A stretch of 51,148 bases of DNA from the NCBI GenBank assembly GCA_001785965.1, contig MFVF01000030.1, positions 1 to 51,148 on the forward strand, given 5' to 3'. Below, in pieces: positions 1 to 12,092 of this stretch. The notes under the pieces were generated by a model. That model was not told where the DNA came from and searched no databases. It saw only the letters and a list, made by a program, of their open reading frames with translations. This DNA comes from Candidatus Nomurabacteria bacterium RIFCSPLOWO2_01_FULL_42_20. GTDB lineage: Bacteria > Patescibacteriota > Minisyncoccia > Phycocordibacterales > CAZVEC01. The number at the start of each line of letters is the position of its first letter. Position 1 is the first letter of the stretch. A program made the translations under genes and the position numbers.

Positions 1-76
1 GTAAAATACGATTTTTGGTATATTCTACTTGTTTGCTTGCCCTTCGTAGCTTTTAAGCGAAGTAGGGCGTGTGTAG

Positions 77-134
77 CCCCGACGTCATTAGAGTCGGGAT
101 CCCGACTTCCGACATTAAGGTCGGAACGTCGGGA
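77..134 (+). repeat. GC-rich self-folding insert 1 in the D-stem of the outer tRNA
   Basis: Closing helix CCCGACGT (78-85) with ACGTCGGG (126-133), enclosing hairpins GTCGGGA/TCCCGAC (93-106) and TCCGAC/GTCGGA (108-113 with 120-125). The 17-mer at 93-109 is identical to 3519-3535. Confidence 0.6.
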
Positions 135-144
135 TTCAGTGGTA

Positions 145-210
145 CCCGCCCGCCAGCCCGACAGAGTCATTCTGGCGGGTACCGAACGTGGTTCGGCACG
201 TTCGGGCGGG
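145..210 (+). repeat. GC-rich self-folding insert 2 in the D-loop/D-stem of the outer tRNA
   Basis: CCCG (145-148) pairs with CGGG (207-210). Internal helices are CCCGCCAG (149-156) with CTGGCGGG (172-179), and CCGAAC (182-187) with GTTCGG (191-196). Confidence 0.55.
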
Positions 211-287
211 GAACGCTGTCCTGATATCGATTACGATATATTTAGTTCGCTCGTTCATAATGAAAATAAAGCCCTAATTTTTTGCGT

Positions 288-359
288 GCGCGTGTAGTTC
301 AGTGGTAGAACGCTGTCCTGATAAGACAGAGGTCGAAGGTCCGATTCCTTCCACGCGCA
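288..359 (+). tRNA. tRNA-Ile, anticodon GAT (320-322), uninterrupted, no encoded CCA
   Basis: Manual cloverleaf: acceptor GCGCGTG/CACGCGC, D arm GTTC-AGTGGTA-GAAC, anticodon arm CTGTC-CTGATAA-GACAG, T arm GAAGG-TCCGATT-CCTTC. The T-loop has C at the normally invariant U55 position. Flanks extend the acceptor helix to 11 bp (284-294 with 352-362). Confidence 0.85.
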
Positions 360-740
360 CGCAGAACGGTAGGCTTTATTTTCATTAGAACTCGCTGCCA
401 AATATAAGACAGAGGTCGAAGGTTCGATTCCTTCCACACGCACAAAATGGAGCAAAGCGGAATTTTGTGCGTGTGGAACAAGCCAATTGCTTGACTTGCG
501 TAAGGAATCGAAAGCCGCAGCCATGTTTTTTCAGCAGAAAAAACAGGCGAGACAGGGTCGTGAAAATTTTAAAGCGACGGCTTTAAAATTATTCCTGACC
601 GATTCCATCCGCCCGCACAAATTAATTGTATTTTATTTTAATCTTGCTTTTTTCCTTGATTTGATGTAATTTACGACAAAGGATGTCAAGCCATAGCTTG
701 ACTTAATTTGTAAACCAAAAAGAAAAAAGGAGGAAAAATC

Positions 741-1868
741 ATGACAAAAAAAATGACCTATGCCGGCGTCGGCGTGAACTACGACGCGATGGATCCGTTC
801 AAACGCGATGCGCAAGCAGTCGCAGCGACAACGGATCACTTTGTCGAGCGTTTTGGTTTCAAGGTCGTACCATGGAGCCGAGGCGAGAGCGTTTTTCTTA
901 TCGAAACGCCTTGGGGGTATCTGGGATTCGTTGTGGAGGGTCTCGGCACTAAGAATATGGTAGCCGATGACCTCTATCGGCTCGGAAAACAGGTGGAATC
1001 GCTCTTTGGTAAATCGTTCTATGATCAAGTAGCGCAATGCAATGTGGCCATGGTGGTCAATGACACGATCACGCTCGGCACACTTCCTGTTTCTCTCGGC
1101 CAGTACCTGGCCGTTGGCGACTCCGGGTGGTTCAGCGACGAGCGGCGCCGCGCTGACCTGATCGAAGGAACGCGGAAGGCCTGTGTTCTGGCACGATGCG
1201 TATGGGGCGGCGGAGAAACACCAACACTCAAAGGCATCATCATGCCTGGAACTTCAGATCTTTCGGGTGCCGCCATGGGATGGCTTGCAAAGAAGGATCG
1301 TGTTTTAGGGCCACATAAAATCCAACACGACGATGCGATCATTCTCATCGAGAGTTCTGGTATCCACGCGAACGGCCTCACGATGGCGCGGAAGATCGCT
1401 GACAAGCTGCCTGACGGCTATCTTACGCGGCTCGACGATGGGCGAACGTACGGAGAGACTCTGCTCGATCCTACGCACATTTACGTTGCACTCGTTGAGG
1501 ATTGCCTCAATCGCGGAGTGAGTATTCACTACGCGGTGAACATCACGGGCCATGGCTGGCGCAAGCTCATGCGGGCGACGCAATCGTTCGCCTACATCAT
1601 CGAGTATCTGCCAAAGCAGCTTCCGATCTTCGACTTTCTGCAGAAGCACGGCCCGGTGGACGATAAGGAAGCATATGGCAACTTCAACATGGGTGCGGGC
1701 TTCGCACTCTATGTTTCGGAAGCCGATGTGGCTACTGTTCTTGAAGTCGCTGCTTCGCACAAACTCGGCGCGCTTCGTGCCGGATACATTGAGCAAAGCA
1801 ACGAGAAGAAAGTCGTCATCCGACCGAAGGGCCTCGAATACTCCGGCTCAACGCTCCGCCTACGTTAA
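741..1868 (+). CDS. PurM/AIR-synthase family protein
   Basis: 375-aa ORF with a strong SD (AAGGAGG) upstream. PurM-like blocks: YAGVGVNYDA, EGLGTKNMVAD, VAMVVNDTITLG, GGETPTLKG, ESSGIHANGLTMARKI, LLDPTHIYV, FNMGAGFALYV. Visibly GC-richer than its neighbours. Confidence 0.7.
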   Translation: MTKKMTYAGVGVNYDAMDPFKRDAQAVAATTDHFVERFGFKVVPWSRGESVFLIETPWGYLGFVVEGLGTKNMVADDLYRLGKQVESLFGKSFYDQVAQCNVAMVVNDTITLGTLPVSLGQYLAVGDSGWFSDERRRADLIEGTRKACVLARCVWGGGETPTLKGIIMPGTSDLSGAAMGWLAKKDRVLGPHKIQHDDAIILIESSGIHANGLTMARKIADKLPDGYLTRLDDGRTYGETLLDPTHIYVALVEDCLNRGVSIHYAVNITGHGWRKLMRATQSFAYIIEYLPKQLPIFDFLQKHGPVDDKEAYGNFNMGAGFALYVSEADVATVLEVAASHKLGALRAGYIEQSNEKKVVIRPKGLEYSGSTLRLR

Positions 1869-2138: not shown

Positions 2139-3761
2139 ATGACTCAATTAGAGGCACTGAATGTTTTAAAGACTGGCGCCAATGTATTTCTGACCGGCGA
2201 GCCCGGATCGGGGAAGACTTATGTTGTCAATCAATATGTGAAGTATTTGCGCGAACGAAAAATCGAGCCGGCGATTACCGCTTCGACCGGCATTGCCGCC
2301 ACGCACATCGGCGGATATACCATTCACTCTTGGAGCGGGATCGGCATTAAAAATACGCTGACGAAATATGATCTGGATAAAATTGCGCAGAGCGAATATC
2401 TCACTCGCCGGATCCGCAAAGCCAAAGTCTTGATCATTGACGAGATTTCCATGCTCCGCGCCGAGACGCTTTCCATGATTGACGCGGTTTGCCGAGAGGT
2501 GAGGCAATCAAGCGAAGCATTTGGAAATTTGCAAGTAGTTTTAGTCGGCGACTTTTTCCAGTTGCCGCCCATCAATAAGGAGAAACAGGAGAACATTCAA
2601 GTTTCTTTATTGAGTGAAAAGGAAGCTAATTTCGCGTATGAATCAGGAGCCTGGAAAAATATTAAACCGATAACCTGCTATTTGAGCGAACAGCACCGCC
2701 AGGACGACGGCCAATTCTTGGATCTCCTCTGCGCCATTCGGCGCGATACGGTAAATCAAGATCACCTAGATTGTTTGCGGTCGCGTTTTGTCGAAACTGG
2801 TCAGGAAAATATCACCAAGCTTTATTCGCACAATGCCGATGTTGACCGGGTTAATTTGGAAATGTTGGAAAAAATTGGCGAAGAAACGGTTAATTTTGAA
2901 ATGACTTCGGCCGGAGCGCCGGGACTTGTCGCGGGCTTAAAAAAAGGATGCCTCTCGCCGGAGTCGCTTGCGCTCAAAAAACGGGCGGTCGTCATGTGCA
3001 CAAAAAATAATCCGAAGGAGGGTTTTGTAAATGGCACTTTGGGTGTGGTGGCGGATTTTGACGGCTATACTAAATATCCGATTGTGAAAACTTATTCAGG
3101 GCAAACGATTAAAATCTCGCCGATGGATTGGAGCATTGAAGAGCAAGGTAAAATCAAAGCGAAAATCAGCCAAGTTCCGCTTCGGCTGGCCTGGGCGATG
3201 ACGGTTCATAAAAGCCAGGGGATGAGTTTAGATTCGGCGGTGATGGACTTGTCGGGAGTTTTTGAATACGGGCAGGGCTATGTCGCTCTCTCGCGGGTCT
3301 GCCGGCTGTCGGGACTTCATTTGCTTGGTTTGAACGACCGGGCGCTCAAAGTGCATCCGCAAATTTTTGAGCAAGATAATGTTTTTAAAAACGCTTCGGA
3401 GGAGACGCGGAAAACTTTCGGCGAATTGCCGGCCGAAGAAATGAAAAAAATGCACCGCAATTTCATTTCGGCCTTGGGCGGTAAATGGAAGGAAAAGGAA
3501 GTCCCGATGCCCGGAGGGGTCGGGATCCCGACTTCTCCCCAAAAGGAGAATGTCGGGAAAAAACCAAAAAGCAACTATCTGGAAAAAATTCGCGAAAAGC
3601 ACAAAAACGCCTACGCTCGGTGGAGAAAGGAAGAGGAGAAAGATTTAGTCCAAAATTTCAATGAAGGAAAAACAATAAAAGAAATTTCGATTTTACTCGG
3701 CCGAAAAACCGGCGGCATAAGAGCTAGGCTGGTCAAACTTGGCCTGTTGGAAGAAAATTAA
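2139..3761 (+). CDS. Pif1/RecD-family (SF1B) DNA helicase with C-terminal HTH-like tail
   Basis: Walker A GEPGSGKTY, IDEISML, VLVGDFFQLPP, MTVHKSQGMSLD, YVALSRV. C-terminal tail KTIKEISILLGRKTGGIRARLVKLGL. Confidence 0.8.
   Translation: MTQLEALNVLKTGANVFLTGEPGSGKTYVVNQYVKYLRERKIEPAITASTGIAATHIGGYTIHSWSGIGIKNTLTKYDLDKIAQSEYLTRRIRKAKVLIIDEISMLRAETLSMIDAVCREVRQSSEAFGNLQVVLVGDFFQLPPINKEKQENIQVSLLSEKEANFAYESGAWKNIKPITCYLSEQHRQDDGQFLDLLCAIRRDTVNQDHLDCLRSRFVETGQENITKLYSHNADVDRVNLEMLEKIGEETVNFEMTSAGAPGLVAGLKKGCLSPESLALKKRAVVMCTKNNPKEGFVNGTLGVVADFDGYTKYPIVKTYSGQTIKISPMDWSIEEQGKIKAKISQVPLRLAWAMTVHKSQGMSLDSAVMDLSGVFEYGQGYVALSRVCRLSGLHLLGLNDRALKVHPQIFEQDNVFKNASEETRKTFGELPAEEMKKMHRNFISALGGKWKEKEVPMPGGVGIPTSPQKENVGKKPKSNYLEKIREKHKNAYARWRKEEEKDLVQNFNEGKTIKEISILLGRKTGGIRARLVKLGLLEEN
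3498..3535 (+). repeat. GC-rich palindromic element inside the helicase C-terminal linker (in frame)
   Basis: GAAGTC (3498-3503) pairs with GACTTC (3530-3535). It contains GTCGGGATCCCGACTTC (3519-3535), identical to 93-109 in the tRNA insert. Encodes VPMPGGVGIPTS. Confidence 0.55.
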
Positions 3762-7092: not shown

Positions 7093-7359
7093 ATGTTCTA
7101 TACCTATGTTTTACAAAGTAAAATGAATAATCAGCTATATATTGGATATACAGCTGATTTAAAACGCAGATTATCAGAACATAATCAAGGGTTAAATTTT
7201 TCTACAAAGAGATACATGCCTTGGCAATTAATTTATTACGAAGCTTCGGTAGAAGAGAGTGACGCCAAACGAAGAGAGAAGTATCTAAAAACAACTCAAG
7301 GTGGTAGATTACTAAAGCGGAGAATAAAGGATTATTTATATAAAAGTCGAAAAATTTAA
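7093..7359 (+). CDS. GIY-YIG nuclease family protein
   Basis: FYTYVLQS...QLYIGYTADLKRRLSEHNQG...E.KRREKYLK. Confidence 0.8.
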   Translation: MFYTYVLQSKMNNQLYIGYTADLKRRLSEHNQGLNFSTKRYMPWQLIYYEASVEESDAKRREKYLKTTQGGRLLKRRIKDYLYKSRKI

Positions 7360-12086: not shown

Positions 12087-12092
12087 TATAAT

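What the first reader, a model, noticed from the sequence alone, without database searches (positions are those of the whole stretch)
67..442. An intact tRNA-Ile(GAU) nested in the anticodon-loop insert of a second, triply interrupted tRNA-Ile(GAU)
Four + strand segments (67-76, 135-144, 211-226, 407-442) join into a perfect 72-nt tRNA-Ile(GAU) cloverleaf. The three interruptions lie at tRNA positions 10/11 (58 nt), 21/22 (66 nt) and 37/38 (180 nt); 37/38 is the canonical archaeal and eukaryal intron site. Each D-arm insert closes on itself through GC-rich helices. The 180-nt insert forms a long helix (taatgaaaataaagcc at 256-271 with ggctttattttcatta at 372-387, plus atattt with aaatat). At its tip sits a complete uninterrupted tRNA-Ile(GAU) (288-359) whose acceptor helix is extended to 11 bp. 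The two copies differ at only three exon positions. Two of these are a compensatory acceptor-stem pair (C4:G69 in the inner copy, T4:A69 in the outer), which argues that the structure of both copies is maintained. The third is in the T-loop: the interrupted outer copy keeps canonical TTCGATT, while the uninterrupted inner copy has TCCGATT, with C at the near-invariant U55. Multi-intron and split tRNAs are known in Archaea, but I know of no such arrangement in a bacterial context (rplI, rsmI and typA are present here). Excision of the inner tRNA by RNase P and RNase Z would leave two outer halves held together by the intron helix. That last point is inference.
Basis: partly seen in the sequence, partly recalled or inferred. 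Interest (0 to 1): 0.88.

Follow-up and report, generated by a model that had tools for sequence, protein, structure and literature searches.

The report
Invaded tRNA gene carrying its replacement
An isoleucine tRNA gene of a tiny groundwater bacterium has been split by small pieces of mobile DNA, one of which carries a working copy of the same tRNA. It is therefore a scar of selfish-DNA invasion rather than a tRNA with introns, and the same kind of invasion is widespread in these bacteria and seems not to have been described.

Summary
Four collinear segments join into a 72-nt tRNA-Ile(GAU) that is 69/72 identical to the intact tRNA at 288-359.

The intron reading does not hold. Other contigs of the same population (Candidatus Nomurabacteria, Rifle groundwater) have identical left flanks and carry the "outer" sequence as one uninterrupted gene, 72/72. 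There it sits behind a 93-aa GIY-YIG nuclease gene. One allele is a recombinant that lacks outer nt 20-36.

The 180-nt insert is a conserved cassette without an ORF. It has a left arm, a complete tRNA-Ile and a right arm. The same cassette sits at the same anticodon-loop site in other Patescibacteria, where the outer halves are often truncated or come from another acceptor lineage.

The first D-arm insert is a CCGAC...GTCGG palindrome module. This module marks a large family: 64 of 76 loci with a small UPF0213/SLX1-like GIY-YIG gene have it, and the gene abuts a tRNA gene in 66 of 80. Many of these loci show an intact tRNA nested in a hairpin-riddled copy.

Best reading: the outer copy is the dead ancestral gene and the inner copy is the functional replacement brought by mobile DNA. 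C55 is a common natural variant (40/77). The mobility mechanism is inferred. I found no prior description.

The parts
67..76 (+). Outer (ancestral, now broken) tRNA-Ile(GAU), nt 1-10
   Evidence: Identical to nt 1-10 of the uninterrupted gene in alleles L013-L016.
77..134 (+). Palindrome module hp1 (58 nt), made of CCGAC...GTCGG hairpins and inserted at tRNA position 10/11
   Evidence: Its composite CCCGACTTCCGAC..GTCGGAACGTCGGG recurs just upstream of GIY-YIG ORFs in the unrelated loci L074 and L095. The 17-mer GTCGGGATCCCGACTTC recurs at window 3519-3535.
135..144 (+). Outer tRNA nt 11-20 (D-stem 5' strand and D-loop)
   Evidence: family D8.
145..210 (+). GC-rich palindrome module hp2 (66 nt), inserted after GGTA (standard numbering 21/22)
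   Evidence: (I14, I16). GC-rich hairpins lie after GGTA in outer copies of L139 and L152, and after TTCAG in L141.
211..226 (+). Outer tRNA nt 21-36 (D-stem 3' strand, anticodon stem 5' strand, anticodon GAT, A37)
   Evidence: D3.
227..287 (+). Left arm of the ORF-less tRNA cassette: small hairpin that includes exon ATA, helix P3, internal loop with GTTCGCTCG, helix P2, and GCGT extending the acceptor stem
   Evidence: Homologous arms are at the same site in L181, L172, L114 and L126. RNAalifold counts 14 pairs kept through changes on both sides.
288..359 (+). Inner, intact tRNA-Ile(GAU) (C4:G69, C55): the functional gene
   Evidence: ARAGORN. Rfam RF00005, 73.5 bits. The C55 T-loop is common in this tRNA family.
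360..406 (+). Right arm of the cassette: CGC pairing with the left arm's GCG (its T pairs with A73), GAACGGTA, P2 3' strand, internal loop with CTCGCTGCC, P3 3' strand
   Evidence: (I1, I3). The same right arm follows the tRNA in allele L007.
407..442 (+). Outer tRNA nt 37-72 (T55, A69)
   Evidence: D2: 404-443 is 95% identical to 321-360.
449..599 (+). A further insertion block behind the tRNA. It holds antisense copies of the tRNA 3' end (462-478, 497-512) and a degenerate 3' half.
   Evidence: Present in L014 and absent in L015. In L014 it is flanked by a 24-nt direct repeat, CGATTCCTTCCACACGCACAAAAT. (I2, I4). Analogous blocks with the motif GCG.A.GGAATCG are in L134, L164 and L171.
600..622 (+). 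Older, decayed relic of a tRNA 3' end (CGATTCCATCCGCCCGCACAAAT)
   Evidence: D1, 86% identical to 425-446. In L014 this position holds a perfect copy.
3500..3560 (+). Second copy of the palindrome family, in frame inside the Pif1-like helicase gene
   Evidence: It lies in a length-variable linker of the protein.
7093..7359 (+). Free-standing 88-aa GIY-YIG (UPF0213-like) gene: a possible nuclease acting in trans. Its link to the tRNA locus is inferred only.
   Evidence: Pfam GIY-YIG, E = 7.8e-18. Translation.

Best explanation
The outer tRNA is the ancestral tRNA-Ile(GAU) gene of this locus, now dead. It was cut in its anticodon loop, between nt 36 and 37 (standard 37/38), by a 180-bp cassette without an ORF. 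The cassette consists of a left arm, a complete tRNA-Ile(GAU) and a right arm. Because it brings a working copy of the gene it destroys, the insertion costs the cell nothing. The now redundant 5' half then took up two GC-rich palindrome modules in its D-arm.

The inner tRNA is the gene that is used. I infer that the two arms pair into a long leader-trailer helix that isolates the inner tRNA from the identical outer halves in the transcript, so that it folds and is released by the normal tRNA end-processing enzymes, and that the outer pieces are discarded.

Spread is most likely by break repair or recombination, with the two tRNA halves acting as homology arms. The break would be supplied in trans by the small GIY-YIG nucleases that occupy the same tRNA gene in sister alleles and many tRNA genes across Patescibacteria.

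Shown: the anatomy, the insertion polymorphism, the homology of the cassette and of the first palindrome module to elements elsewhere, and the decay of outer copies elsewhere. Inferred: the nuclease target, the copying mechanism and the RNA processing.
For: (1) Same locus, other alleles. L013, L014, L015 and L016 share the window's upstream flank and carry the outer sequence as one uninterrupted gene, 72/72. It is preceded by tRNA nt 1-19, CCGAC hairpins and a 93-aa GIY-YIG ORF. Three samples hold both alleles.

(2) L007 is a recombinant: T4 from the outer type, C55/G69 plus the right arm from the inner type, and no outer nt 20-36.

(3) The outer sequence is an ordinary stand-alone gene in other genomes, for example L107 and L142.

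(4) Homologous cassettes sit at the identical site in L181, L172, L114 and L126. L181 has no D-arm hairpins, so those are secondary.

(5) The arms share one fold, and 14 pairs are kept through changes on both sides.

(6) In L112, L139, L145, L146 and L172 the outer halves are truncated, decayed or belong to a different acceptor lineage from the inner gene. So the outer is the host relic and the inner is the incomer.

(7) hp1 belongs to the palindrome family found within 160 nt upstream of 64 of 76 GIY-YIG ORFs, against 1 of 76 controls. The closing pair is complementary in 117 of 124 hairpins, and the exact composite is shared with L074 and L095.

(8) In 66 of 80 species-level loci the GIY-YIG ORF abuts a same-strand tRNA; 25 end on the TAG at tRNA positions 8-10. 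At least 40 have a 5' tRNA copy upstream. About 14 also have a 3' copy downstream, which makes them nested tRNAs with an ORF: L123, L082, L102 and L064. Derivatives without the ORF exist: L131, L164.

(9) C55 occurs in 40 of 77 genes, and at least 20 fully paired acceptor stems are present.
Against: The window's cassette encodes no nuclease or recombinase, so its mobility rests on analogy and on polymorphism.

The outer exons of this genome are still perfect, so non-function cannot be read from the window alone.

The arms are conserved by covariation. This shows selection on a structure (RNA or single-stranded DNA) whose role I can only guess, and it leaves a little room for RNA-level processing of the whole nest.

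If the GIY-YIG enzyme cuts the tRNA D-arm, I cannot explain how the intact inner copy escapes.

The rest of the genome could not be searched for a second tRNA-Ile(GAU), RtcB or a splicing endonuclease.

All comparison sequences are metagenomic contigs.
Confidence: 0.8

Rival explanations
1. The outer copy is a functional tRNA with three introns. The D-arm inserts and the 180-nt insert are removed from the RNA. The inner tRNA is cut out by RNase P and RNase Z, and the outer halves are held together by the arm helix and then ligated.
For: One insert lies at the canonical 37/38 site. All outer exons are intact and fold into a cloverleaf. The arm helix is conserved by covariation. In the window and in L181 the outer halves are undecayed.
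Against: The inserts are present or absent among alleles of one population. Allele L007 has lost outer nt 20-36. Outer halves are truncated or mismatched in L112, L145, L146 and L172. hp1 is a dispersed palindrome module that is also found inside a protein gene.

No Rfam family other than tRNA matches, whereas a group I intron is found in L084 with the same tool.

At 37/38 the four intron bases that would have to pair with C32-A35 (CUGA) in a bulge-helix-bulge are AAUA: none of the four positions forms a pair (read from the sequence). An insert between G10 and U11 splits the D-stem. An intact copy of the same tRNA lies 60 nt away, so nothing selects for splicing.
Confidence: 0.04
2. The fragments are att-site duplications left by a tRNA-targeting integrase (a genomic island or prophage) that later lost almost all of its DNA.
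For: The anticodon loop and the T-loop are classical integrase crossover sites (established knowledge). The 3' fragments at 404-443 and 600-621 are direct repeats of the tRNA 3' part. The region upstream encodes a primase-like protein and a HicB antitoxin, which could be island genes. L014 and L015 have a different right flank behind the tRNA.
Against: Integration duplicates only the part of the tRNA carried in attP, normally the 3' part. Here a complete second gene lies between a complete 5' half and a complete 3' half.

The cassette is a conserved 180-bp unit with its own covarying structure in several genomes. That is not what random deletion remnants look like.

No integrase was annotated in the ORFs checked around the locus in the window or in L001-L010.

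This mechanism remains possible for the 449-599 block.
Confidence: 0.05
3. A local rearrangement with no mobile element: replication slippage or template switching between tandem tRNA copies made the nested duplicate, and the palindromes arose in place.
For: The region is full of short direct and inverted repeats of tRNA pieces. Recombination between the copies clearly happens (L007).
Against: The same cassette arms and the same insertion point recur in distant genomes with different flanks. hp1 shares an exact 13 + 14 nt composite stem with loci from other phyla. The inner and outer copies belong to different alleles or lineages.
Confidence: 0.06

Closest known systems
Free-standing GIY-YIG homing endonucleases of T4-like phages, especially SegB in the T4 tRNA gene cluster (PMC2330249, abstract seen)
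   Same: A GIY-YIG nuclease gene without an intron sits among tRNA genes. Its presence or absence varies between close relatives. Inheritance is thought to run through cleavage of the allele that lacks it and copying of the gene with its flanking markers.
   Different: The proteins here are about 90 aa, a bare UPF0213/SLX1-like catalytic domain with no DNA-binding tail. They sit inside a duplicated tRNA, are always accompanied by CCGAC palindromes, and belong to cellular genomes of Patescibacteria. The window allele has no ORF at all. Cleavage has not been tested.
Endonuclease-linked cassettes of organelle genomes that carry a replacement piece of the invaded gene and leave the displaced piece as a pseudogene fragment (for example Allomyces atp6, Paquin et al. 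1994; recalled from memory, not checked here)
   Same: The logic is gene-for-gene replacement: the incoming DNA restores the function it destroys, and the host's own segment stays next to it as a relic.
   Different: The target here is a tRNA. A whole gene, not a terminal segment, is supplied and ends up nested. The arms form a conserved helix. The relic collects palindromes.
Archaeal multi-intron and split tRNA genes (established knowledge)
   Same: tRNA sequence is interrupted at up to three places, including 37/38 and D-arm sites, with helices bringing the pieces together.
   Different: No bulge-helix-bulge is present. An intact copy lies inside. The inserts are polymorphic within a population and are homologous to dispersed repeats. 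Outer copies decay in relatives.
Group I introns in bacterial tRNA anticodon loops (review PMC3984707, seen)
   Same: An insert in the anticodon loop of a bacterial tRNA. Such introns really occur in these bacteria: L084 tRNA-Asn, RF00028, 80.3 bits.
   Different: The window insert has no group I core. Apart from the tRNA it holds only 108 nt. It lacks the U at the end of the 5' exon and the terminal G of the intron (read from the sequence).
tRNA-targeting integrative elements with att duplications (established knowledge)
   Same: Partial direct repeats of a tRNA gene flank inserted DNA. The anticodon loop and the T-loop are used as sites.
   Different: Both halves are duplicated. The inserted unit is 180 bp, has no integrase and has its own conserved fold.
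Dispersed palindromic repeats: REP elements with RAYT transposases, and Rickettsia palindromic elements (established knowledge)
   Same: Short GC-rich palindromes with a conserved core and covarying stems are scattered in the genome, one of them in frame inside a protein gene. They are statistically tied to one nuclease gene family.
   Different: The associated protein is a GIY-YIG nuclease, not an HUH transposase. The preferred sites are redundant tRNA copies.

Membership tests
Archaeal/eukaryal-type tRNA introns (splicing endonuclease) | Bulge-helix-bulge at the exon-intron junctions | tested here: not met
   At 37/38 the intron bases AAUA would have to pair with C32-A35 (CUGA): none of the four positions forms a pair (read from the sequence). 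In the predicted fold the D-arm inserts are closed hairpins that abut exon bases, without two 3-nt bulges.
Archaeal/eukaryal-type tRNA introns (splicing endonuclease) | The genome encodes a splicing endonuclease and an RNA ligase (EndA, RtcB) | not testable with these tools
Archaeal/eukaryal-type tRNA introns (splicing endonuclease) | The interrupted gene is the copy the cell depends on and is conserved as such | tested here: not met
   An intact copy lies inside it. Sister alleles have the gene uninterrupted. Outer copies are decayed in L112, L145, L146 and L172.
Group I intron in a tRNA anticodon loop | Catalytic core recognised by the Rfam model RF00028 | tested here: not met
   No hit down to E = 10 in window 1-760. 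Positive control: L084 scores 80.3 bits.
Group I intron in a tRNA anticodon loop | U at the end of the 5' exon and G at the end of the intron | tested here: not met
   Junctions are ..CTGATA|TCG.. and ..AAATATA|AGACAG. No placement within the 3-nt ambiguity gives a terminal G.
Homing-endonuclease element (free-standing GIY-YIG type) | Encodes the endonuclease | tested here: not met
   There is no ORF in window 67-442. The sister allele (L007, L011-L016) encodes a 93-aa GIY-YIG at the same tRNA gene. The window allele can therefore be at most a derivative without the ORF, or a passenger.
Homing-endonuclease element (free-standing GIY-YIG type) | Presence/absence polymorphism at one precise site in a conserved target gene | tested here: met
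   Alleles with and without each insert share the same left flank. The same site is used in other genomes.
Homing-endonuclease element (free-standing GIY-YIG type) | Site-specific cleavage of the empty allele | not testable with these tools
   Needs purified protein and DNA substrates.
Integrase-borne island at a tRNA gene | Tyrosine or serine recombinase gene next to the repeat | tested here: not met
   No recombinase domain appears among the genes annotated around the locus.
Integrase-borne island at a tRNA gene | Only the attP-borne part of the tRNA (usually the 3' part) is duplicated | tested here: not met
   The 5' half, the 3' half and a whole gene are all present. The feature may hold for the separate 449-622 block.
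MITE / cut-and-paste transposon | Terminal inverted repeats and a fixed target-site duplication | tested here: not met
   The inverted repeats are internal (258-273/372-387), and the ends TCGATTACGA.. and ..CTGCCAAATA are not complementary. The ATA overlap in the window is absent in L181 and L172.
GIY-YIG-associated CCGAC palindrome family (defined here) | YCCGAC-loop-GTCGGR hairpins with a covarying closing pair, inserted in a redundant tRNA copy | tested here: met
   hp1 (77-134) has three such hairpins. The exact composite is shared with L074 and L095. Family statistics are. hp2 (145-210) is GC-rich and palindromic but has a different core, so its membership is open.
ORF-less tRNA-Ile cassette family (defined here) | Insertion at 37/38 of tRNA-Ile(GAU); arms with TCGCTC / CTCGCTGC in an internal loop and an ATGAAAAT/ATTTTCAT helix; a complete tRNA at the tip | tested here: met
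   Window, L181, L172, L114 and L126.

The most novel reading that the evidence does not exclude
The window holds an ORF-less member of an undescribed, widespread class of selfish elements of Patescibacteria and neighbouring phyla. These elements take over tRNA genes by replacement. A bare UPF0213/SLX1-like GIY-YIG nuclease, together with CCGAC palindromes that would be its structure-specific substrate, breaks or riddles the resident tRNA gene. The element supplies an intact copy nested inside it. The host then depends on the element, and the two tRNA halves serve as universal homology arms for spread between genomes. The 180-bp structured cassette would be a nuclease-less hitch-hiker on this system. 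If so, it would also give a first biological role to the UPF0213 (YhbQ-like) protein family.
Probability: 0.45. Interest if true: 0.8.

Novelty: new variant of a known kind. Interest (0 to 1): 0.6.

Why it matters
It removes a tempting but wrong claim, that of a bacterial tRNA with three introns. It also shows how such a pattern arises.

tRNA genes of candidate-phyla-radiation bacteria are a battleground for several kinds of small selfish DNA. These elements avoid harming the host by carrying a spare copy of the gene they break.

This has three practical consequences:
- tRNA fragments and hairpin-bearing pseudo-tRNAs will confuse tRNA counts in these reduced genomes.
- The tight link between a roughly 90-aa GIY-YIG protein, a conserved palindrome and tRNA genes gives a testable function for a large family of "hypothetical" nucleases.
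- The cassette arms are a new conserved structured element whose role can be tested.

Tried and rejected
Phage records: distant BLAST of window 1-740 found only generic tRNA similarity.

Rfam: at the gathering threshold and at E <= 10, nothing but tRNA in the window. In 11 related loci there was nothing besides tRNA. No known ribozyme or intron family matches.

Hammerhead-like reading of CUGAUA at the exon end: rejected, because the base at the invariant G8 position is A (read from the sequence).

Group I intron: rejected.

MITE with a TA or ATA target duplication: rejected, because L181 and L172 lack the duplication and the ends are not inverted repeats.

The tRNA-Pro locus at 12092 as a second example: the upstream 114-aa ORF is a small membrane-like protein with no nuclease domain.

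C55 as a marker of element-borne copies: 16 of 25 relic-bearing loci against 24 of 52 plain loci, which is not convincing.

Promoter and terminator scan of 1-760: no more hits than in shuffled sequence.

Literature: five full-text searches found no description of GIY-YIG genes abutting tRNA genes in Patescibacteria or of nested tRNA cassettes. The library lacks most subscription journals.

Full report
**Observation**

The four + strand segments 67-76, 135-144, 211-226 and 407-442 join into a 72-nt sequence. ARAGORN calls it tRNA-Ile(GAU). It is 69/72 identical to the intact gene at 288-359, and the differences are at position 4 (T against C), at T-loop position 55 (T against C) and at position 69 (A against G). 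In the raw DNA only the inner gene is found (ARAGORN; Rfam tRNA 73.5 bits).

The inserts are 58, 66 and 180 nt long. In linear numbering they lie at 10/11, 20/21 and 36/37.

Eight contigs from different samples and assemblers carry the same locus, identical or with a single base change.

**Organism**

The window is the 51,148-bp contig of Candidatus Nomurabacteria bacterium RIFCSPLOWO2_01_FULL_42_20. This is a candidate-phyla-radiation (Patescibacteria) genome from the Rifle aquifer (name attached to P0026; assembly GCA_001785415.1).

**Other alleles of the same locus**

The protein look-up also returned L007. It has the same flanks on both sides but a different middle:
- tRNA nt 1-19;
- a cluster of CCGAC...GTCGG hairpins;
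- a 93-aa GIY-YIG ORF whose stop codon is the TAG at tRNA positions 8-10 of the next gene;
- a complete tRNA, the same 47-nt right arm, and outer nt 37-72.

L007 has no outer nt 20-36. Its complete tRNA has T4 (outer type) with C55 and G69 (inner type), so it is a recombinant of two allele types.

Five further contigs from other samples carry the nuclease allele. In L013, L014, L015 and L016 the gene behind the ORF is the outer sequence, uninterrupted and identical at 72/72. It is followed directly by the outer 3' flank, except in L015, which has the alternative right flank. Three samples hold both the window allele and the nuclease allele.

The outer tRNA is therefore the ancestral gene of this locus. 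The window allele and the nuclease allele are two independent disruptions of it.

**The 180-nt insert is a conserved cassette**

A scan of metagenome contigs with 36 nt of the tRNA core returned more than 120 hits; 80 were read.
- 49 are plain genes. Some are 72/72 identical to the outer sequence in quite different contexts, for example L107 and L142.
- L181, L172, L114 and L126 have, at exactly the same point of the anticodon loop, arms homologous to window 227-287 and 360-406, with a complete tRNA-Ile between them.

All of these fold alike. The elements are: a small hairpin that includes the exon's ATA; an outer helix; an internal loop with TCGCTC on one side and CTCGCTGC on the other; a second helix (ATGAAAAT/ATTTTCAT with a variable distal part); and a 4-bp extension of the acceptor stem that includes the discriminator base. 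With only four sequences, RNAalifold still counts 14 pairs kept through changes on both sides.

L181 has the outer 5' half in one piece, so the two D-arm inserts of the window are later additions.

In L172, L145 and L146 the outer 3' half is truncated. In L112 and L139 the outer halves pair with each other but belong to a different acceptor lineage from the inner gene. This is what one expects if the outer copy is the host's displaced gene and the inner copy arrived with the cassette. It is not expected of a gene maintained for splicing.

**The D-arm inserts and the nuclease family**

hp1 (77-134) is built of CCGAC...GTCGG hairpins. The GIY-YIG protein of the sister allele has homologues in many Patescibacteria. 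A scan of one genome per species found 221 relatives; the best 80 loci were read. The results are as follows.

| Feature of the 80 GIY-YIG loci | Count |
|---|---|
| Same-strand tRNA begins between about 100 nt before and 120 nt after the ORF stop | 66 of 80 |
| ORF stop is exactly the TAG at tRNA positions 8-10 | 25 |
| Different tRNA identities involved | 14 |
| Copy of the tRNA 5' part (8-41 nt) upstream of the ORF, interrupted by or ending in the palindromes | at least 40 |
| CCGAY...RTCGG hairpin within 160 nt upstream of the ORF | 64 of 76 |
| The same hairpin in control stretches | 1 of 76 |
| Hairpin closing pair complementary | 117 of 124 |

Typical hairpin positions in the upstream tRNA copy are 10/11, 15/16, 19-21, 26/27, or in place of the anticodon arm.

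The composite stem of hp1 (CCCGACTTCCGAC ... GTCGGAACGTCGGG) recurs exactly in front of GIY-YIG ORFs in L074 and L095, which come from unrelated genomes. About 14 loci also have a 3' tRNA copy behind the intact gene, often with the same hairpins: L123, L082, L102 and L064. These are intact tRNAs nested in a hairpin-bearing copy, as in the window, but with the ORF still present. Forms without the ORF also exist: L131, L164.

The nearest solved structures are the UPF0213 proteins BH0048 and EF2693, and SLX1, a structure-specific nuclease. A second copy of the palindrome family lies in frame inside the window's Pif1-like helicase gene. hp2 is GC-rich and palindromic but has another core. GC-rich hairpins also lie in the D-loop of outer copies in L139, L141 and L152, after GGTA or after TTCAG.

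**Tests of the intron reading**

- Rfam finds no family but tRNA in 1-760 down to E = 10. The same tool finds a group I intron (80.3 bits) in the tRNA-Asn gene of L084, so the negative result means something.
- A bulge-helix-bulge cannot form at 37/38: the intron bases that would face C32-A35 are AAUA.
- The insert at 10/11 splits the D-stem.
- The compensatory 4:69 pair only shows that each copy was a good tRNA before they were brought together. At least 20 fully paired acceptor stems occur among 77 related genes.
- C55 is found in 40 of those 77 genes, so it is a normal variant of this lineage and not damage.

**How it most likely works**

Shown:
- an ancestral plain gene;
- insertion of a tRNA-bearing cassette at 37/38;
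- later insertion of palindromes into the redundant 5' half;
- recombination between alleles;
- the same processes in many genomes.

Inferred:
- The cassette and the nuclease elements spread by repair of a break in an empty tRNA gene, with the two tRNA halves acting as homology arms.
- The break is made by the small GIY-YIG nucleases, acting in trans for forms without an ORF.
- The arm helix keeps the inner tRNA from mispairing with the identical outer halves in the transcript.
- The palindromes are the nuclease's structure-specific substrate and are tolerated only in redundant copies.

I put the core claim (the outer copy is a dead relic, the inner copy is the functional incomer, and mobile DNA is the cause) at about 0.8. 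The particular copying mechanism is much less certain.

**Further layers at the locus**

Behind the outer 3' end, block 449-599 is another insertion. L014 has it between two perfect 24-nt repeats of the tRNA 3' end, and L015 lacks it. The block contains antisense copies of the tRNA 3' end and has analogues in L134, L164 and L171. Window 600-622 is the corresponding older relic, now decayed. The locus thus records at least three rounds of invasion.

**Comparison with what is known, and novelty**

The logic is that of free-standing homing endonucleases (T4 SegB among tRNA genes, PMC2330249) and of organelle cassettes that replace the gene segment they displace. The palindromes recall REP and Rickettsia palindromic elements.

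Several things appear new. A whole tRNA is nested in the copy it replaces. A bare UPF0213/SLX1-like GIY-YIG gene, a conserved palindrome and a tRNA gene are tightly and widely associated. The structured ORF-less cassette is also new. Five full-text searches found no description, but the library is incomplete.

I rate it a new variant of a known kind, with interest 0.6. The original claim falls, but what replaces it is a sizeable and testable phenomenon.

**Caveats**

All comparison data are metagenomic contigs. No expression data were available. The rest of this genome could not be searched. Nuclease activity and its target are untested. The covariation in the arms rests on four sequences.

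Noticed in passing
window 3500-3560: Two CCGAC-type palindromes, including a 17-mer identical to part of hp1, lie in frame inside the Pif1-like helicase ORF (2139-3761). They sit in a linker whose length varies among homologues. This looks like a palindromic element inserted into a protein-coding gene.
   Followed up: partly
window 449-622: A separate insertion block lies behind the tRNA. It holds antisense copies of the tRNA 3' end and an older decayed 3' relic. It is present in L014 and absent in L015. Analogues with the motif GCG.A.GGAATCG occur in L134, L164 and L171.
   Followed up: partly
window 7093-7359: A second small GIY-YIG (UPF0213-like) gene lies between the ABC-F gene and typA, with no tRNA beside it. 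The sequence before its ATG (GGATCCCGTAGTAGAATTTTGATTCGATT) is nearly the same in L090, from another Nomurabacteria genome, and shares AGTAGAATT with the leader of the L007 nuclease.
   Followed up: partly
L105-L184 (metagenome tRNA-Ile loci): 40 of 77 tRNA-Ile(GAU) genes of this sequence family have C instead of the near-universal U at T-loop position 55, on many different fully paired acceptor stems.
   Followed up: partly
L084 2153-2400; L068 after about 1790: The tRNA-Asn(GUU) gene behind a GIY-YIG element is itself interrupted in the anticodon loop. In L084 the insert is a group I intron (RF00028, 80.3 bits) and carries an HNH-like ORF (read by eye, not scanned). In L068 the contig ends inside a similar insert.
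   Followed up: partly
L151, L152, L159 (downstream of tRNA-Ile): Another GIY-YIG subfamily (MYYVY.., MHYVYILQ..) starts a few to about 130 nt downstream of the tRNA-Ile 3' end, instead of upstream.
   Followed up: no
L059, L067, L093, L096: A mirror-image arrangement: intact tRNA, then the GIY-YIG ORF, then a 3' tRNA copy that in L067, L093 and L096 bears a hairpin.
   Followed up: no
L089 about 1300-2150: The GIY-YIG ORF is flanked by three hairpin-bearing tRNA-Ala-like copies. No intact tRNA is detected within 3.2 kb. The last copy has a 3' end that does not match its 5' end.
   Followed up: no
L001 and L005, upstream of the window start: The genes just upstream of the tRNA locus encode a 928-aa primase-like protein (weak DnaG zinc ribbon), a HicB antitoxin and a 103-aa protein. 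This may be an island abutting the tRNA gene. L014 and L015 have a different right flank behind the tRNA.
   Followed up: no
L181 about 2530-2612; L116 and L161 upstream of the tRNA: Another recurrent relic type: tRNA nt 1-12 (GCGTGTGTAGTT) followed by GTTGGT.. In L181 the upstream flank is also duplicated. This suggests yet another small insertion element that hits position 12/13.
   Followed up: no
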